IMG/VR virus record: IMGVR_UViG_3300028597_000008
Direction: 5' to 3' (one strand)
Length of the DNA stretch: 53,894 nt
Origin: an uncultured virus (IMG/VR IMGVR_UViG_3300028597_000008)
Lineage: Duplodnaviria; Heunggongvirae; Uroviricota; Caudoviricetes
Numbering within the stretch: the stretch's first letter is position 1; the number at the start of each line of letters is the position of its first letter. A program made the translations under genes and the position numbers. The notes under the pieces were generated by a model that was not told the origin of the DNA, searched no databases, and was given only the letters and a program-made list of their open reading frames with translations. This document shows positions 16,865 to 36,822 of this stretch, piece by piece.

Positions 16865-16888
16865 CTGCACATTCTACGGAGTGTGCAG
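16865..16888 (+). repeat. Conserved intergenic hairpin H1
   Basis: CTGCACATTC-TACG-GAGTGTGCAG (cUACGg tetraloop). Confidence 0.85.
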
Positions 16889-16928
16889 GCGGATTAAACT
16901 CAAACCACAACGCAAGGAATCATACGAA

Positions 16929-17507
16929 ATGGCAATCTCCAAGAAATGGACTGTGAACGACGAACAGGGCATGAAAGACGTGCGCGCAGAAATGGCACGC
17001 CTGCAAGGTGAAATGCAAGTGTACGAGGCTGCAAAAGCCGCTGGTGAATCCGCGTACCATTTCCGTTTGACGCGGCGCAAACCGTTGCACAAAATTTTGG
17101 CCGAGTTCGAAAAGACTGAGCGCTGCCTCGTGAATCTGAATGGCTTTGATGAAGTTGTGCCTCTTTACGCATACGACGAAAACGGTCTGACCCGTATGGA
17201 AGCGCAGCCGTTGAACTTCGATCCGCGTTATGTGTTCGGCTGGTCTGAGTACGAATACAAAATCGAAAACGGCGTTTCTCTGCGTGTAGGTTTCGGTATT
17301 GAACCGAATCAGGAAGACGACGTACCGCGTTTCAGCGTTGAATTGCTGTGCAGCGGAAACGAGACGTTCCTAAAAGATCGTAAGCTGCTGTCGGACATTC
17401 CGCGCAGTGCACCGCAGAAGTACACGCACCACCAATTGACTATGGCAGTGCTGAAACGCCTGACGCAATTAGAGCAGGCTGAAACCAAACCGCGCCGCCG
17501 TCGCTAA
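16929..17507 (+). CDS. Hypothetical protein
   Basis: AAGGA RBS. Confidence 0.75.
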   Translation: MAISKKWTVNDEQGMKDVRAEMARLQGEMQVYEAAKAAGESAYHFRLTRRKPLHKILAEFEKTERCLVNLNGFDEVVPLYAYDENGLTRMEAQPLNFDPRYVFGWSEYEYKIENGVSLRVGFGIEPNQEDDVPRFSVELLCSGNETFLKDRKLLSDIPRSAPQKYTHHQLTMAVLKRLTQLEQAETKPRRRR

Positions 17508-17522
17508 AAGCAATTATGAGAG

Positions 17523-17550
17523 AACCCGCCAAGTGCGGGTTTTTTCGTTT
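17523..17550 (+). terminator. Rho-independent terminator
   Basis: AACCCGC-CAAGT-GCGGGTT-TTTTCGTTT. Confidence 0.85.
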
Positions 17551-17579
17551 GTGTAGGAACCCAAAACGGAGATTTACCC

Positions 17580-17756
17580 GTGTGGCTGAATTTGCTTCCC
17601 GCTGCATTTATGATTGCGGTGCTGCTAATCGTTGGTGGCATCATGTGGAACGAGTGGCGCAAAACAATGCGCCTGAAAGAGCATTATCGGAAACGGCGTG
17701 AAACCTTCGACGCTGAAATTGCACGCATCATGGAGAAACAAGAAAATGACCAGTAA
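17580..17756 (+). CDS. Small membrane protein (58 aa, not in ORF track)
   Basis: GGAG RBS, GTG start; MWLNLLPAAFMIAVLLIVGGIMW then charged tail. Confidence 0.65.
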   Translation: MWLNLLPAAFMIAVLLIVGGIMWNEWRKTMRLKEHYRKRRETFDAEIARIMEKQENDQ

Positions 17757-18024
17757 ACAAAATCCCGACGCACTCGACCTTCTGCGCGTTCGCCGAAATC
17801 ATTTGGCGCGCACTGATGCAGATTGCTACGTCAACCAAAAAGAGGTGAACACGGTTTGGCTGATGGAAGAGGAAATCAAACGCGGTCGTGAAGCAGAACG
17901 TCGGGCCGCAGATTACTTCGACTTCCTGAAAACTTTGAAGGAGGGTGAATATTGGGACTGGGTTACTTTCGTTGACTTCCACCACAAACGGGAAAACGAA
18001 CGGGCGGGTGAACCGGAAGACTAA
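17746..18024 (+). CDS. Hypothetical protein
   Basis: GGAG RBS. Confidence 0.7.
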   Translation: MTSKQNPDALDLLRVRRNHLARTDADCYVNQKEVNTVWLMEEEIKRGREAERRAADYFDFLKTLKEGEYWDWVTFVDFHHKRENERAGEPED

Positions 18025-18099
18025 GCCGCTTCTATACATACGCGGGCGCGTACGCACATATAGAAGGCGTACGCCCTGCAAGAAAGTTTGTGCGGCCTG

Positions 18100-18188
18100 T
18101 TGACAGGAAACGGTGAAAGCCTCATATTGCATTCACCGGGACAAAGTGTGCCCGAAAGAAAAGTTCTCACACAGATAAGGAAAGTTGA
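18100..18188 (+). promoter_or_regulatory. Sigma70-type promoter plus conserved leader, copy 3
   Basis: TTGACA-17-CATATT; CGGGACAAAGTGTGCCCG-AAAGAAAAGTTCTCACACAGATAAGGAAAGTTGA. Confidence 0.85.
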
Positions 18189-18190
18189 AC

Positions 18191-18586
18191 ATGACCGCGC
18201 AAATCTGGAAACCAACCAAAGCAGAAGCAGAACACATTCGCGCCGTTGCAAAAGCGAAAGTGTCCGGTCTGCGCAAAATCGAAGCGGGCATTCGTTGCAA
18301 TACGGTTTATGGTGGCGTTGGTCATTCGTTCAACATTGCACGTGTGACAAAAAGCCCGGATGATTACACGCTGGATACTGACCTGTTCGATTTTGCAACA
18401 TGGGCAGAATTCCGCAAAGGTGTAGAGCTTGGCGAGAACGGAAACGCCATCGTCGATTTCTACCTGCACAATCAATACGAACTCGACACCAACATCGTCG
18501 TTTATTACGAAGCTGGGCGAATTCAAAAAATCCTGTCTGTGAACGGTCACAACATCATGACCCTTGCTGGCATCCTGTCGGAGTAA
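18191..18586 (+). CDS. Hypothetical protein
   Basis: ATG after conserved leader. Confidence 0.75.
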   Translation: MTAQIWKPTKAEAEHIRAVAKAKVSGLRKIEAGIRCNTVYGGVGHSFNIARVTKSPDDYTLDTDLFDFATWAEFRKGVELGENGNAIVDFYLHNQYELDTNIVVYYEAGRIQKILSVNGHNIMTLAGILSE

Positions 18587-18593
18587 TGCAAAC

Positions 18594-18848: not shown

Positions 18849-18855
18849 GGCAATC

Positions 18856-19113
18856 ATGCTCCTGAAAATTCTGCTGGGCCTTGTTTTGGTGTACCTGTCG
18901 TTCGGCGTTTACTTTACTGGCTTCGCTCTTTATTACATGGCGATCAATCGTTCTACGAATGAAGAGTATGCACACCAGTTCGATTCGTTCGCCGCGTACA
19001 GCTTCAAACTCAAAGTGGCGTCTGTTCTTCTGGCGATCTGGTACGGCGTTATTTGCTGGTTGCCAATCGCTGCCGGTTGGATGACACGCCCGACCAAATT
19101 CAAATTCCGTTGA
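18856..19113 (+). CDS. Membrane protein
   Basis: GAGG RBS; two hydrophobic segments. Confidence 0.7.
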   Translation: MLLKILLGLVLVYLSFGVYFTGFALYYMAINRSTNEEYAHQFDSFAAYSFKLKVASVLLAIWYGVICWLPIAAGWMTRPTKFKFR

Positions 19114-19124
19114 GATAAATTCTT

Positions 19125-19149
19125 CTGGCGATTCTAATAAAGTCGCCAG
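19125..19149 (+). repeat. Conserved intergenic hairpin H2
   Basis: CTGGCGATT-CTAATAA-AGTCGCCAG; flanks TGAGATAAAT and AACCACAACGCAA shared with H1. Confidence 0.85.
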
Positions 19150-19183
19150 TGTAATTAACCACAACGCAATGAGGACGTATCAA

Positions 19184-19927: not shown

Positions 19928-19950
19928 CTGAAACAGCTAGATAAGCTTCC

Positions 19951-19980
19951 CTGTGCATTCGAATCCGTTTGAGTGCACAG
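19951..19980 (+). repeat. Conserved intergenic hairpin H3
   Basis: CTGTGCATTCGAA-TCCG-TTTGAGTGCACAG. Confidence 0.8.
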
Positions 19981-20070
19981 CGGGGCCAAACTGGCGGCAT
20001 GCCCGGTTTCCGCATGCCAAACCCGTTTCCCGGTTTCTGTAGACCATGCAAAAAAGTTTGTGCTGGCCTA

Positions 20071-20158
20071 TTGACTCTGATGCGCCTACAAGGCACTATG
20101 AATCCAGTTCGGGCAATTGTGCCTGACACAAAACTACTCACACCATAAAGGAAGTTGA
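20071..20158 (+). promoter_or_regulatory. Sigma70-type promoter plus conserved leader, copy 4
   Basis: TTGACT-17-CACTAT; CGGGCA-ATTG-TGCCTG; CTCACACCATAAAGGAAGTTGA. Confidence 0.8.
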
Positions 20159-20162
20159 CACC

Positions 20163-21332
20163 ATGACCACTACTACTCACACCGTTGCTGCTATGTTGGC
20201 TGTTGCTGTTGCCGCGCTGGAAACTCAAAACGCCGCGCACAAAAAAGAAACCGGCTCGCCGCTTTATGCACTGGGCACCGATTTGGGCAACGGCGTTAAG
20301 TTCCGCGAACTGAAAGCGTGGCTGAAAGATTTGAAAGCCAAGCAAAAAGAAGTCGCACCGGCTCCAAAAGCTGCCGAAGAAAAAGCACCGCGTACCCCGC
20401 GTGCAAAAGCTGCCGCTGCTGATACCAACGTCGGCAACGTTCGTGATCTGGAACTGAGCAAATCCAGCAACATCGAATCGGCTGTTTACAACCGCGACAC
20501 CAAAACCCTGCGCGTTACCTTCAAAAACGGTTCGGTGTACGATTACGCCAACGTCGGTATCCGCGAAGCCAACAACTTCGAAAAAGCCGAAAGCGCGGGC
20601 GTCTGGTTCAAAGAAAACATCAAGGGCCAGAAAGACACCACCAAAATCAAGGCCGCTGGCAAAACCGCTGACGCTGCACCGGCTCCAAAAGTAAAACCTG
20701 CTGCAAAAGCTGTCGAAGCAAAACCTGCTGCAAAACCTGCTGCAAAACCTGCTGCAAAAGCTGCACCGGCTGTTGAATACACCGCTTCGGAACTGCGTGG
20801 TTCGGAACTGCTGAACGGTCGCAAAGTCGAGTTGATCGCCAAAGTCGTGACCAACAAAACTACCGGCAACCGTGAAGTAATCACCGCGTCGGGCGCTCGT
20901 TACGAAATCGCCGCACTGCGCAAAAACAACCGTGGTCGTTTCGTGTTTGAAGAAACCGCCCCGGCCAAACCAGCGGCAAAGGCTGAAACTGTAAAGGACG
21001 CAAAAGCGACCGCTAAAGCCTCGGCAAAGGCTCCACGCGCCAACCGCAAAGCTGACCTGAACGATGACGCCAAAGAAGCGGCGAACAACGCTCGCAAATC
21101 GAAACCGCTGCCAGCAATGCCGAAATCGTCCGAAGTTCGCGGCCAGCAAGTGCGCGTAATCAAAGGCGCCAAGGACAAAATGGTTTTGATCGAACGCGTT
21201 GTTAACCGTGACGGCGTGCGCATGGCAATCACTGAAAACCGTTTCCCGCTTCCGTACGGCCAAATCATCGTCAACGACGGCGTGCTGACCTACACCGGCA
21301 AACTGACTGCCGAAGAGTTCCGCGCAGCCTAA
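20163..21332 (+). CDS. KTSC-domain protein with Ala/Lys/Pro-rich histone-like linkers
   Basis: SSNIESAVYNRDTKTLRVTFKNGSVYDYANV...AESAGVWFKENIKG (KTSC); KPAA repeats; strong codon bias. Confidence 0.85.
   Translation: MTTTTHTVAAMLAVAVAALETQNAAHKKETGSPLYALGTDLGNGVKFRELKAWLKDLKAKQKEVAPAPKAAEEKAPRTPRAKAAAADTNVGNVRDLELSKSSNIESAVYNRDTKTLRVTFKNGSVYDYANVGIREANNFEKAESAGVWFKENIKGQKDTTKIKAAGKTADAAPAPKVKPAAKAVEAKPAAKPAAKPAAKAAPAVEYTASELRGSELLNGRKVELIAKVVTNKTTGNREVITASGARYEIAALRKNNRGRFVFEETAPAKPAAKAETVKDAKATAKASAKAPRANRKADLNDDAKEAANNARKSKPLPAMPKSSEVRGQQVRVIKGAKDKMVLIERVVNRDGVRMAITENRFPLPYGQIIVNDGVLTYTGKLTAEEFRAA
20718..20759 (+). repeat. 12-bp coding tandem repeat (GCAAAACCTGCT)x3.5 encoding AKPA
   Basis: Direct reading. 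Confidence 0.9.
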
Positions 21333-21352
21333 CCAAACCGCTACACCTTCCA

Positions 21353-21388: not shown

Positions 21389-21407
21389 GTATCTGGAGTA
21401 AAATTTT

Positions 21408-22414: not shown

Positions 22415-22627
22415 ATGCCCGGTAAAAAGTTTCTTGCGTACATCGTCGAATCCGAAGCGGGTTGGGGATCGAAGGTTGACGAAACCAAAGAATTCGACAC
22501 GAAAGCAGAGCGTGACGAATTTGTTCGCACCTACAACGAAAAGCACAATCCGAACTTGGGCAAGGAAGGTTTCCAAACCCCTAACTGGTACATGGTAGCG
22601 AAGGCCCCTTATGAAGAAGAAAACTAA
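22415..22627 (+). CDS. Hypothetical protein
   Basis: GAGGTG RBS; IVESEAGWG motif. Confidence 0.7.
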   Translation: MPGKKFLAYIVESEAGWGSKVDETKEFDTKAERDEFVRTYNEKHNPNLGKEGFQTPNWYMVAKAPYEEEN

Positions 22628-23989: not shown

Positions 23990-24078
23990 TTGACAACCTT
24001 TAGGCCGTATGGGAACATTCAATCACCGGGCCAAGTCGTGCCCGAAAGAAAAGTTCTCACACCGATAAGGAAAGTTCA
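23990..24078 (+). promoter_or_regulatory. Sigma70-type promoter plus conserved leader, copy 5
   Basis: TTGACA with weak -10 (AACATT, 18-bp spacer); CGGGC..GCCCG-AAAGAAAAGTTCTCACACCGATAAGGAAAGTTCA. Confidence 0.8.
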
Positions 24079-24746: not shown

Positions 24747-24905
24747 ATGAACGTCAATGAAGCACGAATTCGCACAGAAAAAGAAGCGCGGGAATTTGCA
24801 GCGGTTCGCGTAAAGAACGGGTACGACATTGTGATTGTTGCGTACGATGATCGTCCCAAATATCTGCTAACGTGGCGGCGCCCGTGGTTGGTTATCTACG
24901 GGTAA
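24747..24905 (+). CDS. Small hypothetical protein
   Basis: GAGGTG RBS. Confidence 0.65.
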   Translation: MNVNEARIRTEKEAREFAAVRVKNGYDIVIVAYDDRPKYLLTWRRPWLVIYG

Positions 24906-24918
24906 CAGCTAGTTCATT

Positions 24919-24943
24919 ATGCGCATCTATAACCGGTGCGCAT
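24919..24943 (+). repeat. Conserved intergenic hairpin H4
   Basis: ATGCGCATC-TATAACC-GGTGCGCAT; outer GTTC/GAAC. Confidence 0.85.
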
Positions 24944-24974
24944 GCGGAACGAAACTGAATCAGGAGGCAACAAA

Positions 24975-26154: not shown

Positions 26155-26379
26155 ATGTTCGACAAAGAAGAGTTAACCGAGGAACAAATCTGCTGGGCAT
26201 GGTTGGCGGATCATGAAAACGTCGCCAGCGCGTCTAGCGATTTTCACGTGTTCCGGGTGACGTGGTACGTTGACGGTTTCGGTCGCTGCGAAACAAAAGC
26301 ACCGACGTTGCTGGCCGCTGTTAAAAGCGCGATGACAACCACGTATAAGGGAACTGAATATTTTCCGGGGAAGGTGTAA
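26155..26379 (+). CDS. Hypothetical protein
   Basis: AAGGTG RBS. Confidence 0.7.
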   Translation: MFDKEELTEEQICWAWLADHENVASASSDFHVFRVTWYVDGFGRCETKAPTLLAAVKSAMTTTYKGTEYFPGKV

Positions 26380-26939
26380 TGAGCGCAAAACTTTACGGTT
26401 GGCTAACCAATCCCGAAAACGAAGTGGTGCCAAGCTACGATAGCAGCAAAGAGAAATATGTCGTGGAATGGCACACTGACCACGGACGCATTAGCGCCTG
26501 TGCCGAAACCCTCGATGGTGCAATTCGCAAAGCGTACGAAATCGCGAAAAACCCAAACCCGGAAGAACGTCGGCGCCTTGCGTATATGCCAACCGCAAAC
26601 ACGAGCAACACGGCGTGGTCTACTGGCAACCGAAACGGTAAATGGGGCTGGTACGGCTACGTTAAAATTCAAACGGAACTGGATGCGGAGGAAATTGATT
26701 TCACGCCGCCGAAATTACCGAAGGGTTGGAAATTCAACGAATTCGGCTCAAGCATTCGCCGCGCCAAGTGCAACAAGCGTATGGCCTATCTAGACCAGTG
26801 CGGCCATTCACAGTGGCGTTTTGGTTTCGAAGTTGTAGCCGACACAAAAGAAATCTGGATGGATGGCGACCGCGCAATCTTCAATGCGCTGTGCGAGTCC
26901 GTAGGTGAAGTAGAACGAGCGCATTTCATTATTGAGTGA
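26379..26939 (+). CDS. Hypothetical protein
   Basis: TAATG overlap. Confidence 0.75.
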   Translation: MSAKLYGWLTNPENEVVPSYDSSKEKYVVEWHTDHGRISACAETLDGAIRKAYEIAKNPNPEERRRLAYMPTANTSNTAWSTGNRNGKWGWYGYVKIQTELDAEEIDFTPPKLPKGWKFNEFGSSIRRAKCNKRMAYLDQCGHSQWRFGFEVVADTKEIWMDGDRAIFNALCESVGEVERAHFIIE

Positions 26940-26950
26940 GCATTACGTCT

Positions 26951-26970
26951 GCACATTCTTGCGAGTGTGC
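26951..26970 (+). repeat. Conserved intergenic hairpin H5
   Basis: GCACATTC-TTGC-GAGTGTGC; outer GCATT.CG/CGAATGC. Confidence 0.85.
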
Positions 26971-27016
26971 TTTCGAATGCAAAACCAAATCAACCATAGG
27001 TACAAGGAAAGATATC

Positions 27017-27412
27017 ATGCCATGCAATTGTGACCACATGGAACCAACCCAAAAAGAAACCCTGCTGCGCGCCGCCGCGAACAATCAGGTTTACGTTCGC
27101 ACCAAATTGAAAATGACGGTGCCTGCGTGGCTCAAGCGTGATGCCAAAGACATTTACGCAAAGGATGAACGCAGCGAAACCGAACTGTGCAAAATCCTGA
27201 CCGACCTCGGCAAAGCCAAGCGTGACGAACTGCTTTACGCCGATGCGAAAGACGCCAAAATGCGCGACGTCGCAACGTGGTGGGAAAAGCACGAAAAGGC
27301 CGACAAGGCGCGCAAGCTGACGGAAAAGAAACTGCGTACACAAAAAGCGCAGAAAGCCGAAGCGCTGGCAAAACTTTCGCCTGCTGATAAAAAAGCGCTG
27401 GGGTTGAAATGA
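27017..27412 (+). CDS. Lys-rich hypothetical protein
   Basis: AAGGA RBS; MPC..D start, WW..H..AD motif, A.AKLS..DK.ALGL end. Confidence 0.75.
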   Translation: MPCNCDHMEPTQKETLLRAAANNQVYVRTKLKMTVPAWLKRDAKDIYAKDERSETELCKILTDLGKAKRDELLYADAKDAKMRDVATWWEKHEKADKARKLTEKKLRTQKAQKAEALAKLSPADKKALGLK

Positions 27413-27594
27413 AAGATCAGTTAGGAACAGAAATTGAGAGCGGCGATACCGTCGCGCTCACCAACAGTAGCCACAACCTTTACACGGGCGTGGTTACGAA
27501 AGTCACAACCAAAGTAATTCACATCGGGCCAGATTGCTATCGTCGCCCTTGCGGTGTGATCGTCATTAAGAAGGCAAACCATGAACCTGTATGA
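27409..27594 (+). CDS. Small KOW/SH3-like protein
   Basis: MKDQLGTEIESGDTVAL...GVV.K.T.K pattern. Confidence 0.65.
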   Translation: MKDQLGTEIESGDTVALTNSSHNLYTGVVTKVTTKVIHIGPDCYRRPCGVIVIKKANHEPV

Positions 27595-30167: not shown

Positions 30168-30256
30168 TTGACTTCCTTAGTCGTTTGGGTACAATGAAAG
30201 CCACTGGGGCAAGTTGTGCCCGAACGTTTATAACTCACACCGATAAAGGAAGTTGA
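30168..30256 (+). promoter_or_regulatory. Sigma70-type promoter plus conserved leader, copy 6
   Basis: TTGACT-16-TACAAT; GGGCA-AGTTG-TGCCC; CTCACACCGATAAAGGAAGTTGA. Confidence 0.8.
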
Positions 30257-30258
30257 CC

Positions 30259-30693
30259 ATGACCCCTACCATTTTCCCAAACACTGACGCTTTCGTTGCT
30301 TTGAATGCACAGCGCATTGCAGGCAAACTTACTGCGACCGAGTTGTATAACGCGCAGTGGGCGTTGGCTGTTGAACAGGGAATCAAAACCCACGACGAAA
30401 TGATGGACGATTACGCACGTCTGCCATATACGTCGGCGTGTGGTAAATACGATTACCACGGCACCGAATTGCAGGAAGACTGCAAATACTCCGAAGCGTT
30501 CGTTTGCCTTGAGGATGCAATCAAGGCCCACGAACAGAATAAGAGTTACCCGTGGAGCCGCATTGAATTGCGCGACGGTGATTTCATTTACGAAATCGAA
30601 CCAACGCGCACGCATCGTTTGCGTGAACACGGTGACGGCGTGAAACGTTACGACCCGTGCGATAGCGACGGGGCTTTCTTCAACCGGGATTAA
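30259..30693 (+). CDS. Hypothetical protein
   Basis: ATG after conserved leader. Confidence 0.75.
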   Translation: MTPTIFPNTDAFVALNAQRIAGKLTATELYNAQWALAVEQGIKTHDEMMDDYARLPYTSACGKYDYHGTELQEDCKYSEAFVCLEDAIKAHEQNKSYPWSRIELRDGDFIYEIEPTRTHRLREHGDGVKRYDPCDSDGAFFNRD

Positions 30694-30698
30694 TTCTG

Positions 30699-30722
30699 AT
30701 GGGCATCTAGAATGGTGCCCAT
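30699..30722 (+). repeat. Conserved intergenic hairpin H6
   Basis: ATGGGCATC-TAGAAT-GGTGCCCAT. Confidence 0.85.
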
Positions 30723-30758
30723 TGTAATAAACTCCCCACCGCATAAAGGTCAATCAAC

Positions 30759-31085: not shown

Positions 31086-31490
31086 ATGGAATGTACGAAC
31101 GACAACCCGTGCGGTTTGTGCAACGTGTGTACGCTTGAGGACGAAATTGAAGCGGTCATGTCGAATGCATTGTGGAAGAATTGCGAAACCACAAAATGCA
31201 CAGGCTGTGACCACTGCAACAACTGCCAGCACGGCGAAGAAATTAACGGCTGTGAAATTTGCAGCCCACCGCCGAAATGCTCGCATGGTTTTGTGTACAG
31301 CGAAGGCTGTGCAGATTGCGAAGAAGAACACGAACGGCGCATTGATGCAGAATGCGACCAGACGGAATACTGCAAACATGACATTGAGTATGCTGACTGT
31401 CATGAATGCAGCGCCGAAGCAATGGCACAGTGGGAACGCTCGCAAGAACAAGCCGAGTGGCGTCACTTTCACCCCAACACTGACGACTAA
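31086..31490 (+). CDS. Cys-rich acidic protein (18 Cys), putative multi-zinc-binding
   Basis: GAGG RBS; three CxH-x6/7-CxxC units. Confidence 0.7.
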   Translation: MECTNDNPCGLCNVCTLEDEIEAVMSNALWKNCETTKCTGCDHCNNCQHGEEINGCEICSPPPKCSHGFVYSEGCADCEEEHERRIDAECDQTEYCKHDIEYADCHECSAEAMAQWERSQEQAEWRHFHPNTDD

Positions 31491-31494
31491 CTTT

Positions 31495-31520
31495 AATGTG
31501 CATCTAGAATGGTGCACATT
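31495..31520 (+). repeat. Conserved intergenic hairpin H7
   Basis: AATGTGCATC-TAGAAT-GGTGCACATT; same loop as H6 with a compensatory G-C to T-A change. Confidence 0.85.
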
Positions 31521-31560
31521 GCAGATAAATCATCAGCCATACCCAACAGGGAATTTAATC

Positions 31561-32826
31561 ATGTCTAAATCCGCATATGAAAAACGCACGCCGGAAAGTA
31601 TTGACCTGCAAGTTCGCCGCGAAATTGCTTCAATGCTCGGTCGTAAAACCAGCGCAATCAAACCGGGCACGAAACTCGGTGCGTTAGATGGCGACGGTGT
31701 TTTCGATCTGGCACATTCGCTGGGTGACGTTTTCAATATCGACGTTGCCGAAGAAAAAGTGGAAAGCTGGAATTGCGTTGCACACGTAATTCGTGACGTG
31801 GCCGACGCGCCTTTGCGTGTGCGTACCGTGGGCATGACTCGTTCACCAAAAGCCACCGGTAAAATGAAATTCCCCGGCGTGGAAAAAGCGACAACGCTGG
31901 ACGTTGATACGCTGGCCGAAGAAATTGCCGACCGCGCAGCCGAACGAATGAAAAGCACCCGCGCTTTCACGTTCTCGCACATCGAAAACGAACTGCAAAT
32001 GCGTGACCCGCAGACCGACGATATTTTCGCCGTCGTCACAATAGTGGTGAGCGCGCAGCAAGTCGGTTTCACCGTAACGCATTTCCCGCAACCCGAGGAA
32101 CACACGTGGAACATTAGCGTGCCGTTCGCCTCGTGGTCGCTGGGTTCGCCTTACACGCTTTGCCGTCGCTTCGACATGGCCGCACAGTTGTACGTAAAAG
32201 ATCGCCCAAGCGATTTGCGCGAATGGCTGATTGAGACGATTGCTAACCGTGTGCAATTCCTGCCAATCGTCGCGCCGATGTTCAAGAAGCTGATCGGCGA
32301 GCCGAAAAAGAACAGTCCGTTTGTTGTGTCGGAAATCGGCGAAGCAATGGATATCGAAATCGACGATTCGGTTTTCGACATTTACACCAATCCAAACAAA
32401 ATGGAACAGGGTGATGCCGAAGCACTTTCCGAATCGCTGGATGGTTTCTTTAACCAGTCGTGGTACGCCAGCGACGAAGCCCCGGCGCCTGCTGCAAAAG
32501 CGAAACGTTGCGAACCTGAAAGTAATGCACCAATTGCTTTCCCTTCCGGTGCCGAGAATGCAATCGCCGATGAGCGTGAAGATTACGCACTGTTCGACGC
32601 GCTGCAAAAAGTGGGCACCGATTTGATTGCCCTGTTGTTTATTCGTCAACACGGTCGCGGTGAATACGACGATCTGATCGCCGAAGATAAACCGCTGTCG
32701 AAGACTCGCAACAAAATGATTGATTTGCTGGTGCGCGATAATGACGCCGTTACATTGGCAGAAATCGCAGAGTGGGGCACCAACGCCGAAATGCACGCTG
32801 TTGCAAAAGTTCTGCGTGCGCTGTGA
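31561..32826 (+). CDS. Protein with N-terminal degenerate ACP-like domain (421 aa)
   Basis: VRREIASMLG...IKP...LGALDGDGVFDL..SL.DVFNIDVAEEKVE....V.HVI follows ACP helix spacing but lacks the DSL serine. Confidence 0.65.
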   Translation: MSKSAYEKRTPESIDLQVRREIASMLGRKTSAIKPGTKLGALDGDGVFDLAHSLGDVFNIDVAEEKVESWNCVAHVIRDVADAPLRVRTVGMTRSPKATGKMKFPGVEKATTLDVDTLAEEIADRAAERMKSTRAFTFSHIENELQMRDPQTDDIFAVVTIVVSAQQVGFTVTHFPQPEEHTWNISVPFASWSLGSPYTLCRRFDMAAQLYVKDRPSDLREWLIETIANRVQFLPIVAPMFKKLIGEPKKNSPFVVSEIGEAMDIEIDDSVFDIYTNPNKMEQGDAEALSESLDGFFNQSWYASDEAPAPAAKAKRCEPESNAPIAFPSGAENAIADEREDYALFDALQKVGTDLIALLFIRQHGRGEYDDLIAEDKPLSKTRNKMIDLLVRDNDAVTLAEIAEWGTNAEMHAVAKVLRAL

Positions 32827-33179
32827 GTCGTCGTATCGTTGCGCGCTTTGATGATCGAACGCGCATCGTGCGAATATCCAACGAAAAAGAATCCCGCTAC
32901 GAATTGCTTTCGCGTGGCGGGAAATTTATCGGTGGCGTGTGTACGTACGACAATGGCGCAATTCACATTGACCAGCTTTTCGTTGAGCCTGATTACTGGC
33001 GGCGCGGTTACGCAACGCGCCTAATGAATCAAGTCCTCGAAATCAAAACCAGTCGGTTCACGTTGGACGTTGTGTGGGATAACGAACCGGCTTTAGCGCT
33101 TTATCACAAACTTGGATTTAAATGCACAACTGAGCATGAAGACTCGGACGGTTTATTTTTGATGGAGAAAAAGGTATGA
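32823..33179 (+). CDS. GNAT-family acyl/acetyltransferase
   Basis: LFVEPDYWRRGYATRLM (motif A) and N.PALALYHKLGF (motif B); GTGA overlap. Confidence 0.9.
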   Translation: MSRRIVARFDDRTRIVRISNEKESRYELLSRGGKFIGGVCTYDNGAIHIDQLFVEPDYWRRGYATRLMNQVLEIKTSRFTLDVVWDNEPALALYHKLGFKCTTEHEDSDGLFLMEKKV

Positions 33180-33622
33180 GCAAAATTCTCGCCGGTTATG
33201 TTCTGGCTGTCGCAGCGGCACACGAAGCGGCCTACAATAAAGCCGGGGCCGATGCTGCAACCGATGAATATCTGAAAGGCGGTGATCGTACGGAAGTCGG
33301 CGCGCAGATGTTTGTTGACTATGCGCAATTCCAAACCAAAACGATTTACCAGTGCGCCGAAGAGGTTGTGCCGCATCTGTACCGCCAGCCGGTTTATCTG
33401 CTTCTGCAAACCGCGTGGAATGACGCGCTGATGTGGGCAAACGATACGATGGCGCTACGTGATGCAGACGGCGACGACACGCACAATTTCCGACTCGGCA
33501 TTGAAACGCCAAACGGCACGGTCGATTACCAGTTGAGCGCACAGAACGAATTGTGCGCTGCGTTCAAACTCGGTCAAATCTTCCATCAAGACCTGAGCAT
33601 CGAAACCGTCAAATTGCTGTGA
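33176..33622 (+). CDS. Hypothetical protein
   Basis: ATGA overlap; GGAG RBS. Confidence 0.75.
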   Translation: MSKILAGYVLAVAAAHEAAYNKAGADAATDEYLKGGDRTEVGAQMFVDYAQFQTKTIYQCAEEVVPHLYRQPVYLLLQTAWNDALMWANDTMALRDADGDDTHNFRLGIETPNGTVDYQLSAQNELCAAFKLGQIFHQDLSIETVKLL

Positions 33623-33629
33623 CCTGTTC

Positions 33630-33657
33630 AACTGCACATTTTCTCAAGTGTGCAGTT
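33630..33657 (+). repeat. Conserved intergenic hairpin H8
   Basis: AACTGCACATTT-TCTC-AAGTGTGCAGTT; outer TGTGA/TCACA. Confidence 0.85.
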
Positions 33658-33693
33658 TAGCGAAATCACATGAATAACCAAACGAGGCAAACC

Positions 33694-34578
33694 ATGAAAA
33701 TGAAACAAGCAACCATACGCGGCATGTTCCCAAAACACGCAATCGCGTTCCGCGCTGATGAAACGCTTTTCTACGCGAAGGCCGACAAGAAAAAAGAAAT
33801 CGTCGTCGCCCGCATCGCCTTAAAGACGGATGACAGCCTGACCATTTCTGTACCGATGGGCAGCAAACAAAAGCTGACCACGTTCGCGAATGTCAATCTG
33901 CTGAAAGGCGGTCGCGCAGCAATTCGCAAATCGCTGGAAAGCGCACACGAACGCAACGGTAATTACGTTCCGGCGCCGACCGATAAAATGATCGACACGG
34001 CAAAGGCACGTGTCGTAATCCTGCAATTCGAAGTCGCAGTAACGTTGCTGGCTTCACATTTCAACAAAGGCGTGGATATCCGCGATTGGGATTTCCTGAC
34101 GGCAGCGGCCAAACGCGAATTCCACTACGTCGGCAAGAAAAAGCCTGATCCAACTGCAAAGCTGGCAAAAGAAATCACCGGTGATTTGGTGAAAGAAGCC
34201 GATGGCAAAAAACCACGCAAACCGCGCCAGCAAAAAATCACCGAAGGCCAAGCGCTTTTGCAAGCAGTGGGCGCAACCTTCGACGGCAACGGGCGCATGT
34301 CCACCAACACCAAACCCGCCCCGAAGAAAGCCGCTGCAAAGCCTGAGCGTAAAGCGCACTCTGTAAGCCCCGCAAAGGCCCCTGTGAGCGCGAAAGCAAA
34401 CGGTGCTGTACCTAGCGCCGGAAAATGGACTGGCGCCGACGACGCGATCTATACGGGGCTTCTGGAAGACATGCGCAAACTGACCGGGCGTCTCGCACAA
34501 CTGGATAGCGCACGTAAGCGCGGTATCAGCATCATCGAATACGACGCCAAAGCAAAATCCCGTCGCGCCGCAAAATAA
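33694..34578 (+). CDS. Basic Lys/Ala-rich hypothetical protein
   Basis: GAGG RBS; KPAPKKAAAKP low-complexity segment. Confidence 0.8.
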   Translation: MKMKQATIRGMFPKHAIAFRADETLFYAKADKKKEIVVARIALKTDDSLTISVPMGSKQKLTTFANVNLLKGGRAAIRKSLESAHERNGNYVPAPTDKMIDTAKARVVILQFEVAVTLLASHFNKGVDIRDWDFLTAAAKREFHYVGKKKPDPTAKLAKEITGDLVKEADGKKPRKPRQQKITEGQALLQAVGATFDGNGRMSTNTKPAPKKAAAKPERKAHSVSPAKAPVSAKANGAVPSAGKWTGADDAIYTGLLEDMRKLTGRLAQLDSARKRGISIIEYDAKAKSRRAAK

Positions 34579-34596
34579 GCCGGTAGGCTTTCATCT

Positions 34597-34616
34597 GGCG
34601 ATTCGAAAGAGTCGCC
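34597..34616 (+). repeat. Conserved intergenic hairpin H9
   Basis: GGCGATTC-GAAA-GAGTCGCC (GNRA loop); outer TTTCA/TGAAA. Confidence 0.85.
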
Positions 34617-34643
34617 TTTTGAAAACCATTGGAGAACTAAAAA

Positions 34644-35012
34644 ATGCCTCAAGTTAATAAAGGTAACAAACACACCACAATGCAGATTGAAACGCTGCAC
34701 GTTCTGGATATCGAATTGGCAAAGCGTGTGGGAATTGTTGGCCCGTACGATTTCGTCAATCACGGTTTGCGTGGTTACACTTCGCCGGATCGTTGGCCGA
34801 CAACTTTTCGCCCGTCGCTATCTGCGTGTGATGCCTTGATGGTTGCTGCGTCATTGAACATGCACGTGCAATTTCAGGATCGTTGTGTAAATGCAGAAAA
34901 CGATTCGGGCAGTTCTTCGCATAGTCACACTGGCGAGATTGCGGAGAAATTGCAGGCCATGTGCAAAGCGATTATGAGCCTTGCTTCGATTACGTTGGAC
35001 ATACCGCTATGA
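34644..35012 (+). CDS. Hypothetical protein, possibly NinX/ABA-sandwich-like
   Basis: GGAG RBS; LD..LA..VG, F.PS....DA..V and AMCKAI pattern (weak). Confidence 0.65.
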   Translation: MPQVNKGNKHTTMQIETLHVLDIELAKRVGIVGPYDFVNHGLRGYTSPDRWPTTFRPSLSACDALMVAASLNMHVQFQDRCVNAENDSGSSSHSHTGEIAEKLQAMCKAIMSLASITLDIPL

Positions 35013-35188
35013 ACCTCGGCAGTCCACAAGTAGTGCATTGGCTGGGCATTGCGTGGGTTGTCGTTATGGTTTTGTTTGCCGCCAGCATGCTCTACATAAT
35101 TGTTGATTCGGAACTCGCGGCGCGGCGCAGAGAACGCAACGACCGCGAATGGGAAGAGAAATACGGAAAAGGAAAAGGAAAGCAATGA
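35009..35188 (+). CDS. Small membrane protein
   Basis: ATGA overlap; one hydrophobic segment. Confidence 0.65.
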   Translation: MNLGSPQVVHWLGIAWVVVMVLFAASMLYIIVDSELAARRRERNDREWEEKYGKGKGKQ

Positions 35189-35370
35189 ACGCTTCGCAGA
35201 TTATTGAAAACGCGCTGGGCATTTCAGACCTCGATCTGTTGGCAAACAGCGTAATCGACGCCGTTGGCAATCCTGCCGAATTTACCAAAGCGGATAAACT
35301 GGCACTGCTCGACGAAATGCAGAAACGCCTGTACAACGTCCGCACTCGCATCCTCATGGAGAACGAATAA
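35185..35370 (+). CDS. Small hypothetical protein
   Basis: ATGA overlap; AAGGA RBS. Confidence 0.7.
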   Translation: MNASQIIENALGISDLDLLANSVIDAVGNPAEFTKADKLALLDEMQKRLYNVRTRILMENE

Positions 35371-36263
35371 TGCGTTATCAAGTTGGCGAAAAGATTTGGG
35401 CCGTTTTCTTCCACAACAAATCGGCCATGTTTTACCCGCGCTTTTCTACGTGGTTGCCGAACCTGAATTACACCACGAAAGAATTCCCGGAAATCGAATT
35501 CATCGCCCTGACGGTGACTGAACACCACAAGGTTCCCGGCGAGTGGGATAGCAAAGAAACCGAACCGAGTTACGACGGTTATGTGTTGACTGACGCAAAC
35601 GGTCAAGTCTGGCACAACCAATATCCGTACGCCAGTTACGGCCAAGTCAGCGATTCCAACGACGGGCGTTTTAAACTGCATCTGGAAAAACAAAGAAAGA
35701 TCGCAGACGAAACACTCGAATTCGTACGTGGCAAGCGTGAACGTGGCAACGCTGCGCCGTGGTTGAAGGCACCGCACGTAATCGAAGCCTACGACCTGAT
35801 GCGTGAACTGGCAAACATCACGTACGCCGATTTCGGTTTGCGTGAATACGCGGCCAGTGCGTTGACCGATGAAGAGGCAATGCCACACGTGCACCTTCTC
35901 GGCAAATGGTATGCTCATTTGATCGAAGAGTTTGAAAAACACAGCGGTTTGAAAATCGAATCGTCGCCGTGTTTTTTCACCAACAAAGAAGGCGTAGACG
36001 TAAAGGTCGGTGGGCACTACGATTTCAAAGCCTTAGACCCCGAGAAATTCCACGTGGTGAAATCGTCGCGTGCTTATTCCGGTCGCGGCTACAGTGGGCC
36101 AGCGTTGAAAGGCGCAAACATCACGTTGTTGGAAGCTGAGTTCGACGACCAAAGCAACGCCGAAAGTTGCGCACGCAAATTAACCGCTGTGAACCCGGTC
36201 GGCTTCGACGTGTACAGCAGCAAAACCAAAGAGTGCGTTTACCGCGCACGGGACACAGTTTGA
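35370..36263 (+). CDS. Hypothetical protein
   Basis: TAATG overlap; GGAG RBS; NQYP.ASYGQ.SD motif. Confidence 0.8.
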   Translation: MRYQVGEKIWAVFFHNKSAMFYPRFSTWLPNLNYTTKEFPEIEFIALTVTEHHKVPGEWDSKETEPSYDGYVLTDANGQVWHNQYPYASYGQVSDSNDGRFKLHLEKQRKIADETLEFVRGKRERGNAAPWLKAPHVIEAYDLMRELANITYADFGLREYAASALTDEEAMPHVHLLGKWYAHLIEEFEKHSGLKIESSPCFFTNKEGVDVKVGGHYDFKALDPEKFHVVKSSRAYSGRGYSGPALKGANITLLEAEFDDQSNAESCARKLTAVNPVGFDVYSSKTKECVYRARDTV

Positions 36264-36270
36264 GGTTGAA

Positions 36271-36594
36271 ATGATAAAGCCAATTGCCCGCTTAGTTTCG
36301 CGCAGTAGTTCTGCAACATCCGCAACAGATGGTTTGTTGATCGGCACCCGCTTGACCGGCGAAACGTTTTTTAAACCGAATATGGTTTACGAAATTCTCG
36401 AAATTGACGGCCAGCACGTCATTCGTGAAGTGGGCACTTCGGTAATCGCTGATCCTAATGCGGGTGAAAACGTCAGCGATAGTCCTGTGCGTGAAACGTG
36501 GGGCGCACCGCTGAACCACGTGTTGTGCCAAGGCAAAAACCTTTTCCTTAGTCGGGAAGAGTTCGCGCAATTAAATCAACCATGCGAGGAATGA
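36271..36594 (+). CDS. Hypothetical protein
   Basis: GAGG RBS. Confidence 0.7.
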   Translation: MIKPIARLVSRSSSATSATDGLLIGTRLTGETFFKPNMVYEILEIDGQHVIREVGTSVIADPNAGENVSDSPVRETWGAPLNHVLCQGKNLFLSREEFAQLNQPCEE

Positions 36595-36791
36595 AAATCA
36601 TGGCTCGCAATAAAGTGAGAAAACACATGGAACAGAATCTGAAATCCTTTCAAGGCTTCGCGTTCGCTTTCTGCCGCATGTATCGCCGCGCTTCGCACCG
36701 TCAACACGCAAGGCTGATGGCTCGCCCGCTGGATAACGCGTTGGATTTGTTCAACGCCGATGCGCGACAATTCCGACAACAGGTACAGTGA
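36591..36791 (+). CDS. Small basic protein (start 36591 or 36600)
   Basis: GAGGA RBS; overlap. Confidence 0.6.
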   Translation: MKIMARNKVRKHMEQNLKSFQGFAFAFCRMYRRASHRQHARLMARPLDNALDLFNADARQFRQQVQ

Positions 36792-36798
36792 CACTTTC

Positions 36799-36822
36799 AT
36801 GCGCATTCTAACCAGTGCGCAT
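36799..36822 (+). repeat. Conserved intergenic hairpin H10
   Basis: ATGCGCATT-CTAACC-AGTGCGCAT; outer CACTT/GAGTG. Confidence 0.85.

What the first reader, a model, noticed from the sequence alone, without database searches (positions are those of the whole stretch)
16865..36822. Family of ten covarying intergenic hairpins with an invariant U.G wobble: candidate undescribed phage cis-RNA system
Seen: hairpins at 16865, 19125, 19951, 24919, 26951, 30699, 31495, 33630, 34597 and 36799. All read 5'-TG-NNS-A-T-Y-(loop)-R-G-T-SNN-C. The middle triplet takes five forms (CAC, GCG, TGC, CGC, GGC), each matched by its complement, and the Y-R pair alternates between T-A and C-G. The T.G mispair next to the A-T pair is kept in all ten. 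Loops vary and include cUACGg and GAAA tetraloops; several have an outer stem beyond an internal loop. Each lies just after a stop codon and lacks a terminator U-tract (H9 has only four T, partly in its outer stem). Nine end 27-46 nt before a start codon. All lie downstream of the sigma70-type promoters. Inference: a wobble that pairs only on the plus strand points to RNA (or ssDNA) structure rather than a dsDNA operator. Candidate roles are processing sites that cut the early polycistron (as RNase III sites do in the T7 early region), sites for a phage RNA-binding protein, or cassette-boundary recombination signals.
Basis: partly seen in the sequence, partly recalled or inferred. Interest (0 to 1): 0.9.

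Follow-up and report, generated by a model that had tools for sequence, protein, structure and literature searches.

The report
T7-style RNase III sites, jumbo phage
The ten hairpins are real RNA signals between the early genes of a large soil phage, and they carry the same recognition features as the sites where the host enzyme RNase III cuts phage T7's early message, so they are a new example of a familiar device and not a new kind of system.

Summary
Observation confirmed. All ten hairpins exist at the stated places. The strict motif occurs 10 times on the + strand, 0 on the - strand, and 0.048 times per shuffle. Each is the top of a ~65-nt three-tier hairpin that starts at the upstream stop codon.

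The same family occurs in Pseudomonas jumbo phages Lu11, HRDY3 and PaBG and in 307-314 kb IMG/VR contigs. It is always intergenic and on the gene strand. In the whole genomes scanned, sites cluster in one ~10-20 kb early region. Covariation is strong, including a compensatory change at an orthologous site.

The conserved letters match the determinants reported for E. coli RNase III on T7 R1.1: distal box UA/UG (the "invariant wobble"), proximal box G-C then U-A, same spacing, internal loop at the target. A model built only from the jumbo-phage sites finds T7 R1.1 as its only hit in T7. A model built only from the five T7 early sites hits the window only at these hairpins.

Most likely host RNase III cuts the sigma70-driven early polycistronic RNA here, leaving protective 3' hairpins. 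No cleavage data exist. There is no Rfam family. The scan has noted similar T7-like hairpin families in other phages. Verdict: new member of a known kind.

The parts
16844..16911 (+). H1 element. Inner stem 16863-16890, tetraloop UACG. Predicted RNase III cut between 16891 and 16892 (GCAGGCG|GAUU).
   Evidence: R2 53.6 bits (seed member). Fold -24.0 kcal/mol. pb1 G-C, pb2 U-A, db2 U.G, db1 U-A. Hit by the T7-only model R3 on both strands: 15.2 bits on +, 19.0 bits on -.
19104..19172 (+). H2 element, 7-nt loop. Predicted cut between 19152 and 19153.
   Evidence: Held out of both family models: R1 41.9 bits, R2 38.1 bits. T7-only model R3 22.4 bits, E 0.0011. pb/db table.
19930..20003 (+). H3 element, extended apex (12 nt between the Y-R pair). 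Predicted cut between 19983 and 19984. Followed by a second hairpin and by promoter P4 instead of a start codon.
   Evidence: Held out: R1 20.7 bits, R2 25.6 bits. Fold -31.2 kcal/mol. Context.
24898..24966 (+). H4 element, class II apex (AUC...GGU), 7-nt loop. Predicted cut between 24946 and 24947 (GCG|GAAC).
   Evidence: Held out: R1 20.0 bits, R2 35.4 bits. pb/db table.
26928..26995 (+). H5 element. Short inner stem (pb2 and pb3 mismatched), 5-bp middle stem GCAUU/AAUGC. Predicted cut between 26975 and 26976.
   Evidence: R2 37.7 bits (seed). Fold, table. In a relative (run X3) homology resumes at 26940, just before it.
30678..30745 (+). H6 element, class II apex with loop UAGAAU. Predicted cut between 30725 and 30726.
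   Evidence: R2 53.5 bits (seed). Best hit of the T7-only model R3 in the whole window: 23.0 bits, E 0.00077.
31475..31542 (+). H7 element, class II apex with loop UAGAAU. Predicted cut between 31522 and 31523.
   Evidence: R2 49.7 bits (seed). The orthologous site in IMG/VR locus L037 carries the compensatory change UGC/GCA to CGC/GCG.
33611..33678 (+). H8 element. Predicted cut between 33658 and 33659.
   Evidence: R2 41.0 bits (seed). Fold -23.4 kcal/mol. Table.
34574..34641 (+). H9 element, GAAA tetraloop. Short inner stem (pb2 and pb3 mismatched), middle stem UUUCA/UGAAA. Predicted cut between 34621 and 34622.
   Evidence: R2 37.2 bits (seed). Fold -25.7 kcal/mol. Table.
36778..36845 (+). 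H10 element. Predicted cut between 36825 and 36826.
   Evidence: R2 50.2 bits (seed). T7-only model R3 12.5 bits, E 1.5. Table.
14667..14720 (+). Context: sigma70-like promoter P1 (TTGACA-17-TACCAT) with conserved leader hairpin GGGCGAGGUGUGCCCG.
16132..16185 (+). Context: promoter P2 (TTGACG-17-TATCTT) with leader hairpin GGGCAAAGUGUGCCCG.
18100..18154 (+). Context: promoter P3 (TTGACA-17-CATATT) with leader hairpin.
20071..20125 (+). Context: promoter P4 (TTGACT-17-CACTAT) with leader hairpin.
23990..24044 (+). Context: promoter P5 (TTGACA-17-GAACAT) with leader hairpin.
30168..30222 (+). Context: promoter P6 (TTGACT-16-TACAAT) with leader hairpin. It is the last such promoter found before H6-H10.

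Best explanation
The ten elements are most likely RNase III processing signals of the phage T7 R1.1 type, in the early region of an uncultured soil jumbo phage related to Pseudomonas phages Lu11, HRDY3 and PaBG.

Inferred from promoter-like sites: host RNA polymerase starts at six sigma70-like promoters and makes polycistronic early RNAs.

Shown by folding and covariation: between certain cistrons the RNA folds into a ~65-nt irregular hairpin of about two helical turns.

Inferred by analogy with T7 R1.1: host RNase III recognises the inner helix through a distal box (Y-R pair plus the invariant U.G) and a proximal box (G-C, U-A, then usually A-U or C-G), separated by 4 bp. The internal loop at the target restricts cutting to one strand. 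The cut falls on the 3' strand, 10 nt after the wobble G, for example GCAGGCG|GAUU in H1.

Inferred consequence: the upstream mRNA keeps the 9-11 bp hairpin at its 3' end as protection against 3' exonucleases. The downstream mRNA starts 20-40 nt before its start codon with an unstructured A/C-rich leader. The long early transcript is thereby cut into mono- and oligocistronic mRNAs whose stabilities can differ.
For: (1) The structure is real and selected. On 28 members from the window, Lu11, HRDY3 and IMG/VR contigs, 89.8% of cells pair, against 70.8% in shuffles (0 of 500 reach it) and 30-50% with slid partners. Seven of 9 inner pairs and 4 of 4 middle-helix pairs change on both sides. An orthologous site shows UGC/GCA changed to CGC/GCG.

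(2) It is strand-specific: strict motif 10 on +, 0 on -, and - strand echoes score 11-22 bits against 26-54 bits.

(3) Position. Sites are always intergenic and on the gene strand, after a stop codon: window, Lu11, PaBG. In each whole genome or record scanned they lie mostly in one 10-20 kb segment.

(4) Match to published determinants. Pertzev & Nicholson 2006 (PMC1540722; abstract, Results and Discussion read) report the following for E. coli RNase III on uR1.1:
- an 11-bp helix between the cut and the tetraloop;
- a proximal box with GC at position 1, AU or UA at position 2, AU at position 3, AU or UA at position 4;
- CG or GC at position 2 strongly inhibits binding;
- no requirement on tetraloop sequence.

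In the window db2 is U.G in 10 of 10, db1 is U-A in 7 and C-G in 3, pb1 is G-C in 10 of 10, pb2 is U-A in 8 of 10 and never G-C or C-G, and db2-to-pb1 spacing is 4 bp in 10 of 10. Loops vary freely. Across the 28 members pb1 is GC 23 and AU 5; pb2 is UA 22, AU 4 and unpaired 2.

(5) Direct likeness to T7. R1.1 reads AAGGUCAUUC-GCAA-GAGUGGCCUU UAU|GAUU. R0.3 and R1 carry the AUC...GGU variant seen in H4, H6 and H7. The family has GAUU, GAUG or AAUU at the same offset.

(6) Reciprocal model searches. R2, built only from jumbo-phage sites, has as its best hit in the T7 early region, and its only hit in the whole T7 genome, 5842-5907, which holds the R1.1 stem (18.2 bits; E 0.007 and 0.036). The stretches holding the R1.3 and R0.3 stems rank 2nd and 5th of 8. 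R3, built only from the five T7 early sites, gives 5 hits at E<=10 in the 53.9-kb window, and all 5 are at family hairpins H6, H2, H1 (both strands) and H10. On Lu11 and HRDY3 loci 8 of its 9 hits are at family sites.

(7) They cannot be efficient terminators. H6-H10 follow the last sigma70-like promoter found (30168) with genes continuing beyond them.

(8) The enzyme would be the host's. No RNase III domain (PF14622) was found in 0 of 5 related complete phage genomes, while the same search found it in 8 of 14 control genomes. None was found among 87 window proteins.
Against: No RNA ends, cleavage assay or rnc-dependence is available, so cutting is inferred, not shown. The only RNA run offered holds contigs of a diverged relative, which cannot show ends.

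The cross-family model scores are modest and the E-values are roughly calibrated. R3 reached only 4 of the 10 window sites at E<=10 and scored H1 higher on the - strand (19.0 against 15.2 bits).

The pb/db rules come from E. coli. The Nicholson review (PMC3867540, passages) says the distal box has no conserved sequence among substrates or across species. T7 R0.5 and R1.3 themselves lack the A-U/U.G pair.

The five 'putative RNase III recognition sites' annotated in the P. putida T7-like phage gh-1 do not resemble the family: R2 gave 0 hits in its first 9 kb.

pb3 is C-G in 4 of 10 window sites. In H5 and H9 pb2 and pb3 are mismatched.

Members were collected with a motif or model that demands the A-U/U.G core, so its invariance is partly by ascertainment. 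The host of this phage is unknown.
Confidence: 0.7

Rival explanations
1. The hairpins are uncut structural elements. They act as barriers to 3' exonucleases after decay starts elsewhere, or as insulators that keep the downstream A/C-rich ribosome-binding region unstructured. RNase III is not involved.
For: Stable stems with UNCG-like or GNRA tetraloops in some members (H1 UACG, H9 GAAA). Fixed position of 27-46 nt before start codons. A/C-rich linkers downstream.
Against: This does not explain why particular base pairs are fixed at fixed spacing while the other pairs covary freely. It does not explain why those letters coincide with RNase III determinants (PMC1540722). It does not explain why a T7 RNase III-site model picks out only these sites.
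Confidence: 0.1
2. They are binding or cutting sites for a phage-encoded RNA-binding protein or nuclease that reads the U.G and flanking pairs, for example a translational repressor or an early-mRNA shut-off factor.
For: Fixed letters in a covarying stem are typical of protein operators. Most of the ~106 ORFs have no known function. The family is confined to one region of one phage clade.
Against: No candidate protein was found: no RNA-binding or nuclease family among 87 proteins scanned. The fixed letters are already explained by a host enzyme's published determinants, and they are shared with T7, which is unrelated to this clade.
Confidence: 0.07
3. Their main role is at the DNA level. They would be conserved ~65-bp boundaries where homologous recombination swaps early-gene cassettes, as proposed for PeSL elements of T4-type phages.
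For: At H7 a relative keeps the upstream gene, the hairpin, the leader and the ATG at about 85% identity but has a different downstream gene. A second relative's contig diverges 19 nt after H7. A 560-nt gene is replaced in another relative, with homology resuming 11 nt before H5. PeSLs are described in PMC2839356 and PMC4122927 (passages and abstract read).
Against: Of the 12 joints and 23 loose ends listed only 4 lie within about 50 nt of a hairpin. The hairpin neighbourhoods make up about 6% of the stretch, so this is no clear enrichment. Many swaps end at plain gene junctions. Recombination needs sequence identity, not base pairing, so it does not explain compensatory changes or the strand-specific wobble. 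It could be a side effect of conserved regulatory sequence.
Confidence: 0.05
4. They are transcription attenuators or terminators, factor-dependent or read through after modification of RNA polymerase at the conserved promoter-proximal leader hairpins.
For: Intergenic hairpins lie downstream of promoters that each carry a conserved leader stem-loop, a nut-like arrangement. PeSL stem-loops terminate in reporter tests (PMC2839356).
Against: No U-tract. Five sites in a row (H6-H10) follow the last promoter found, with genes continuing beyond. The fixed letters match a nuclease's determinants, not a terminator's.
Confidence: 0.05
5. They are single-stranded DNA structures, such as priming or replication signals or N4-type hairpin promoters.
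For: A strand-specific wobble is equally compatible with ssDNA of the + strand.
Against: Position is tied to stop and start codons on the coding strand in every genome. The family is confined to the early region. It matches RNA-enzyme determinants. Loop sizes and sequences vary, unlike the N4 promoters (recalled).
Confidence: 0.02

Closest known systems
RNase III processing signals of the phage T7 early polycistronic mRNA (R0.3, R0.5, R1, R1.1, R1.3), especially R1.1
   Same: They lie between cistrons of a host-polymerase early transcript. The hairpin is irregular, about two helical turns, with a 9-11 bp upper stem, an internal loop at the target and a lower stem. The apex is identical: A-U, U.G, U-A, C-G plus a tetraloop (R1.1), or A-U, U.G, C-G (R0.3, R1). 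G-C then A-U or U-A follows 4 bp below the wobble. GAUU follows the predicted or known cut. Models of each family find the other.
   Different: The host phage is a ~300-kb jumbo myovirus clade of Pseudomonas, not a 40-kb coliphage podovirus. The central stem letters differ and covary (T7: GGUC/GGCC). The lower half is split into two short helices and includes the upstream stop codon. Internal loops are small and symmetric (2x2 or 3x3). Cleavage has not been shown. T7 cut coordinates (890, 1468, 3138, 5887, 6448) are recalled from Dunn & Studier 1983, not read here.
PeSL (promoter-early stem-loop) cassettes of T4-type phages (PMC2839356, PMC4122927)
   Same: Repeated intergenic elements with a stem-loop in a variable region of small early genes of unknown function. 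The region has sigma70-type promoters, and relatives show gene swaps next to some copies.
   Different: PeSLs contain the promoter itself, and their stem-loops are G/C tracts that act as terminators. Here promoter and hairpin are separate units (6 against 10). The hairpin-to-start distance of 27-46 nt leaves no room for a promoter. The stems covary around fixed RNase III-type pairs.
T7-like RNase III hairpin families noted by this scan in other uncultured phages (e1-5969713, e1-8121500, e1-5324298, e1-3279875, e1-305704)
   Same: Stereotyped hairpins between small early genes. Several have an invariant U.G, and all were read as T7-style RNase III punctuation.
   Different: They are on other genomes. 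No sequence look-alike of this family is on record in the scan. Those notes are unchecked AI notes.

Membership tests
T7-type RNase III processing signal | Distal box: U.G pair at db position 2 with U-A at db position 1, next to the apex (PMC1540722) | tested here: met
   U.G in 10 of 10 window sites and 28 of 28 aligned members. db1 is U-A in 7 of 10 and C-G in 3 of 10; the C-G form is the one in T7 R0.3 and R1.
T7-type RNase III processing signal | Proximal box: G-C at pb1; A-U or U-A at pb2 with no G-C or C-G there; A-U preferred at pb3 (PMC1540722) | tested here: met
   pb1 is G-C in 10 of 10. pb2 is U-A in 8 of 10, mismatched in 2, and never G-C or C-G. pb3 is A-U in 4, C-G in 4 (as in T7 R1) and mismatched in 2. 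Family-wide, pb2 is UA 22, AU 4 and other 2 of 28.
T7-type RNase III processing signal | Fixed spacing of the boxes within an ~11-bp helix between the apex and the target | tested here: met
   4 bp between db2 and pb1 in 10 of 10, the same as in T7 R1.1. Inner stems are 8-13 bp.
T7-type RNase III processing signal | Internal loop or mismatches at the target site and a further helix below, about two turns in all | tested here: met
   RNAfold gives an internal loop, then a 4-5 bp helix, a second loop and a 2-5 bp helix in all ten and in 13 relatives. The middle helix is 72.3% paired with double changes in 4 of 4 pairs.
T7-type RNase III processing signal | Lies between cistrons of a polycistronic transcript made by host RNA polymerase | tested here: inconclusive
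   All sites are intergenic on the gene strand, and six sigma70-like promoters lie in the region. Transcription itself was not observed.
T7-type RNase III processing signal | Sequence and structure likeness to the T7 sites detectable by covariance models in both directions | tested here: met
   R2 on T7: the R1.1 stem is the top hit of the early region and the only hit of the genome. R3 on the window: 5 of 5 hits are at family sites, though only 4 of the 10 sites are reached.
T7-type RNase III processing signal | Cut by RNase III at a defined bond | not testable with these tools
   No reads that show RNA ends.
PeSL cassette (T4-type phages) | A sigma70 promoter within the same ~100-bp intergenic element as the stem-loop | tested here: not met
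   No promoter-like site at any of the ten. Only 27-46 nt separate hairpin and start codon.
Intrinsic (rho-independent) terminator | G+C-rich hairpin followed directly by a U-tract | tested here: not met
   None of H1-H7 is among the terminator-like sites. The 3' flanks were read; the most U-rich, H9, has UUUUGAAA.
Any Rfam family | Match to a curated covariance model | tested here: not met
   0 matches at gathering score over the window. At E<=5 over 14-38 kb there were only two chance-level matches, away from the hairpins.

The most novel reading that the evidence does not exclude
Beyond being RNase III sites, the ~65-nt elements (stop codon, hairpin, leader, Shine-Dalgarno) may be portable gene-boundary modules. 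Recombination between copies would shuffle early-gene cassettes within the Lu11/PaBG/HRDY3 clade, as PeSLs do in T4-type phages. The letter-level likeness to T7 R1.1 would then reflect exchange of such modules between unrelated phage lineages, not independent convergence on the enzyme's preferences.
Probability: 0.15. Interest if true: 0.6.

Novelty: new member of a known kind. Interest (0 to 1): 0.4.

Why it matters
It gives a testable annotation for dozens of unannotated intergenic elements in Lu11, PaBG, HRDY3 and uncultured jumbo phages. It predicts the exact bonds at which their early transcripts are cut.

The family is also a natural mutational data set. Which pairs stay fixed and which covary across 28+ sites repeats the distal-box and proximal-box rules that were worked out in vitro on one T7 substrate. 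That suggests Pseudomonas RNase III reads the same features as the E. coli enzyme.

It does not reveal a new mechanism.

Tried and rejected
Close relatives:
- Megablast of 16-37 kb against phages gave no match.
- No whole genome is held for the window.
- The 421-aa protein after H7 has no relative in IMG/VR or in phage records.

Pattern scan: GCATCTAGAAYGGTGC in IMG/VR gave 49 stretches. Family model R1 scored a hit mostly in loci from the 307-314 kb and 113 kb contigs. At least 12 of the other stretches are one conserved coding sequence that I read by eye as a Rad50/SbcC-type P-loop. That number of matches is about what I estimate chance would give.

RNA evidence: the single RNA run offered (X16) holds contigs of a diverged relative. 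None of its six listed pieces spans a hairpin, and one runs 33672-34541, between the predicted H8 and H9 cuts. Contigs cannot show ends, so nothing is claimed from this.

Breakpoints: 4 of the 35 listed joints and loose ends lie within ~50 nt of a hairpin, which is no clear enrichment.

gh-1: its annotated putative RNase III sites are unlike the family; R2 gave 0 hits. pf16 has none.

T7 annotation: the T7 records held do not list RNase III sites among the features shown, so T7 cut coordinates rest on recall.

Alignment: the MAFFT alignment of all ten misaligned H2 and H4. Models were therefore seeded from equal-length members.

Literature:
- The PaBG paper has no mention of hairpins or terminators (find).
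- 'HRDY3' returned 0 papers.
- 'RNase III' + 'jumbo phage' + 'intergenic' + 'processing' returned 1 unrelated paper.
- A search requiring 4 of the 5 terms 'RNase III', 'Pseudomonas phage', 'cleavage site', 'hairpin' and 'polycistronic' found 186 papers; none of the 12 listed contained 'Pseudomonas phage'.

Earlier notes: nothing on this genome or on look-alike sequence.

Full report
WHAT IS THERE. The window is phage DNA. About 106 closely packed ORFs all lie on the + strand, and most have no known family. There is no tRNA and no near-identical phage record. A conserved 685-aa protein (43052-45106) is 55.2%, 54.0% and 53.5% identical to proteins of Pseudomonas phages Lu11 (280 kb), pf16 and HRDY3 (314 kb). 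Public runs that hold the stretch are soil and rhizosphere metagenomes.

- The ten hairpins are at the stated coordinates.
- The strict motif, with complementary triplets, occurs 10 times on the + strand and 0 times on the - strand. In 500 shuffles the mean was 0.048 and the maximum 2.
- A looser motif gave 19 on +, 6 on - and a shuffle mean of 4.05.
- The stop codon of the upstream gene ends 4-23 nt before each hairpin.
- A start codon that I judged Shine-Dalgarno-supported follows 27-46 nt after nine of them. H3 is instead followed by another hairpin and a promoter.
- None has a U-tract.
- A covariance model from seven equal-length members (R1) recovered the three held-out members at 41.9, 20.7 and 20.0 bits. 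Its other hits at E<=10 were - strand echoes of the hairpins plus two chance-level - strand hits elsewhere.

THE ELEMENT IS LARGER THAN DESCRIBED. With 22-nt flanks every site folds at -18.5 to -31.2 kcal/mol into three tiers:
- an inner stem of 8-13 bp carrying the U.G;
- a small symmetric internal loop;
- a 4-5 bp middle helix, often AAUC/GAUU;
- a second loop;
- a lower helix that includes the upstream stop codon.

IT IS A CONSERVED FAMILY IN A CLADE OF JUMBO PHAGES.
- R1 and a second model (R2; 28 members, 13 pairs) find the family in Lu11 (8 matches with R2), HRDY3 (8) and PaBG (3). They find none in pf16.
- They also find it in IMG/VR contigs of 307-314 kb and 113 kb.
- The sites are intergenic and on the gene strand.
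- In each whole genome or record scanned nearly all lie in one segment: Lu11 268-279 kb, HRDY3 271-291 kb, G001 130-149 kb of 314 kb, G002 292-303 kb plus 0.9 kb. In the window they span 16.8-36.8 kb.

COVARIATION. On an ungapped alignment of 28 members, 89.8% of cells pair, against 70.8% in shuffles (0 of 500 reach it) and 30-50% with slid partners. Seven of 9 inner pairs and all 4 middle-helix pairs change on both sides. Two pairs never vary: A-U and U.G. Members were collected with tools that demand that core, so its invariance is partly by ascertainment. The middle helix and the three outermost inner pairs were not demanded. At the site orthologous to H7 in a relative, about 85% identical over hairpin and leader, UGC/GCA has become CGC/GCG.

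WHAT IT IS. I folded the intergenic regions of the T7 early region. Three of the five upper stems carry the family's core:
- R1.1: AAGGUCAUUC-GCAA-GAGUGGCCUU;
- R0.3: ...GGGUAUC-GCAA-GGUGCCC...;
- R1: ...GGUCAUC-UGCG-GGUGGCC....
Each is followed after three bases by GAU or similar. The family has GAUU, GAUG or AAUU at the same offset.

Pertzev & Nicholson 2006 (PMC1540722; abstract, Results and Discussion read) defined what E. coli RNase III reads in a minimal R1.1 substrate:
- an 11-bp helix between the cut and the tetraloop;
- a 4-bp proximal box with GC, then AU or UA, then AU, then AU or UA;
- CG or GC at the second proximal position strongly inhibits binding;
- no requirement on tetraloop sequence.

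Placed on the family, every fixed feature finds its counterpart:

| Feature | Window sites (of 10) |
|---|---|
| db2 = U.G | 10 |
| db1 | U-A 7, C-G 3 (the T7 R0.3/R1 form) |
| db2-to-pb1 spacing = 4 bp | 10 |
| pb1 = G-C | 10 |
| pb2 | U-A 8, mismatch 2, G-C or C-G 0 |
| pb3 | A-U 4, C-G 4 (as in T7 R1), mismatch 2 |
| pb4 | usually in the internal loop, as in natural T7 sites |

RECIPROCAL SEARCHES.
- R2 was built only from jumbo-phage sites. Its best hit in the 7.6-kb T7 early region is 5842-5907, which holds the R1.1 stem (18.2 bits, E 0.007). This is also its only hit in the whole 39.9-kb T7 genome (E 0.036). The stretches with the R1.3 and R0.3 stems rank 2nd and 5th of 8.
- R3 was built only from the five T7 early sites. 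With filters off over the whole window and both strands it gives 5 hits at E<=10, and all are at family hairpins: H6 23.0 bits, H2 22.4, H1 19.0 on - and 15.2 on +, H10 12.5.
- On Lu11 and HRDY3 loci 8 of R3's 9 hits are at family sites.
- These scores are modest and the E-values rough, and six window sites were not reached. Nothing else in the window was hit.

HOW IT MOST LIKELY WORKS.
- Six sigma70-like promoters (14667, 16132, 18100, 20071, 23990, 30168) lie in the region. No such promoter follows 30168 until well after H10, yet genes continue. So H6-H10 must be read through, which rules out efficient termination.
- In T7 the host polymerase makes a ~7,000-nt early precursor that RNase III cuts at five sites. 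R1.1 RNA is cut at a single bond into 47-nt and 13-nt products (PMC4858673, passages).
- Single-strand cuts at internal loops leave 3' hairpins that protect against 3'-5' exonucleases (PMC1540722 Introduction; PMC3867540).
- By analogy the cut here falls 10 nt 3' of the wobble G. This is 13 nt after a tetraloop, which fits the 28-nt uR1.1 product (11+4+11+2). The predicted bonds are 16891/2, 19152/3, 19983/4, 24946/7, 26975/6, 30725/6, 31522/3, 33658/9, 34621/2 and 36825/6.
- The same rule applied to T7 gives 890, 1468, 3138, 5887 and 6448. These agree with the coordinates I recall from Dunn & Studier 1983, which I did not read here.
- The enzyme would be the host's. No RNase III domain was found in 0 of 5 complete related phage genomes, with 8 of 14 control genomes positive. 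None was found among 87 window proteins.
- Shown: structure, covariation, position, and likeness to T7 sites and to the published determinants. Inferred: transcription units, the cut, its position and its effects.

WHAT SPEAKS AGAINST.
- There are no RNA-end data. The one RNA run holds only contigs of a diverged relative.
- The determinants are from E. coli. The Nicholson review says distal boxes are not conserved among substrates or species.
- T7 R0.5 and R1.3 lack the A-U/U.G pair.
- The putative RNase III sites annotated in P. putida phage gh-1 are unlike the family; R2 gave 0 hits.
- H5 and H9 have weak proximal boxes.

RIVALS.
- Uncut stabiliser or insulator hairpins, a phage RNA-binding protein, and attenuators do not explain why precisely these pairs at this spacing are fixed.
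- The cassette-boundary idea has anecdotes: a different downstream gene after H7 in relatives, and a gene replaced with homology resuming 11 nt before H5. Only 4 of 35 listed breakpoints lie near hairpins, and recombination does not need base pairing. It may be a side effect.
- PeSLs of T4-type phages (PMC2839356, PMC4122927) differ in holding the promoter inside the element.

NOVELTY.
- No Rfam family matches.
- Four literature searches found no description of these sites in Lu11-like phages. The library lacks most subscription journals.
- The mechanism itself is textbook. This scan has already noted T7-like hairpin families in other uncultured phages, though not this sequence family.
- Verdict: a new member of a known kind, notable for matching the T7 R1.1 determinants letter for letter in an unrelated jumbo-phage clade.

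Noticed in passing
window 14667-14720, 16132-16185, 18100-18154, 20071-20125, 23990-24044, 30168-30222; also L001 4083-4140, L009 ~370-436, L024 ~3790-3852, L030 ~3566-3628, L021 and L025 (- strand): Each sigma70-like early promoter (TTGAC-N16-18 and a -10-like hexamer) is followed about 8-10 nt after the -10 by a nearly invariant leader stem-loop, GGGCAA(N3-5)GUGCCYG, often followed by AAAGA. The unit is conserved in Lu11, HRDY3 and IMG/VR relatives. Differences keep the pairing (C-G to U.G, G.U to G-C). It may be a 5'-end stabiliser or a nut-like loading site.
   Followed up: partly
window 26379-26940, 27409-27580, 22467-22610, 33242-33329: Close relatives in other metagenome runs replace or lack whole small genes here. 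The 560-nt gene at 26379-26939 is replaced by 232 other letters. The gene at 27409-27580 is cleanly absent. So this early region is a gene-swapping hot zone.
   Followed up: partly
window 19993-20018: A second, unrelated G+C-rich hairpin (GGCATGC...GCATGCC) lies directly after H3 and before promoter P4. Together with H3 it may mark the end of a transcription unit.
   Followed up: no
window 13276-13962 and 13972-14439: Just upstream of the first early promoter lie a protein with a VgrG3-like C-terminal domain (PF21277, E 4.5e-57) and a LytTR DNA-binding protein (PF04397, E 1e-9).
   Followed up: no
window 36860-37513, 32772-33176, 20163-21329: Among the early genes are an acyl-carrier-protein-like domain (PF00550), a GNAT acetyltransferase (PF00583) and a KTSC-domain protein (PF13619).
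   Followed up: no
IMG/VR loci L020, L023, L028, L034, L036, L040, L047, L048, L049, L055, L061, L066: The 16-letter apex motif also occurs by coincidence inside a conserved coding sequence. On its opposite strand I read by eye a P-loop of Rad50/SbcC type (GAGKSTILDAL...). This is a false-positive class for motif searches of this family.
   Followed up: partly
L068 2438-2502 (IMG/VR contig of 21.8 kb, 45% complete): A single family-like site (R2 28.6 bits) with its own middle helix (UUGCC/GGCAA) lies in a contig that was not shown to belong to the Lu11-like clade. The family may reach further.
   Followed up: no
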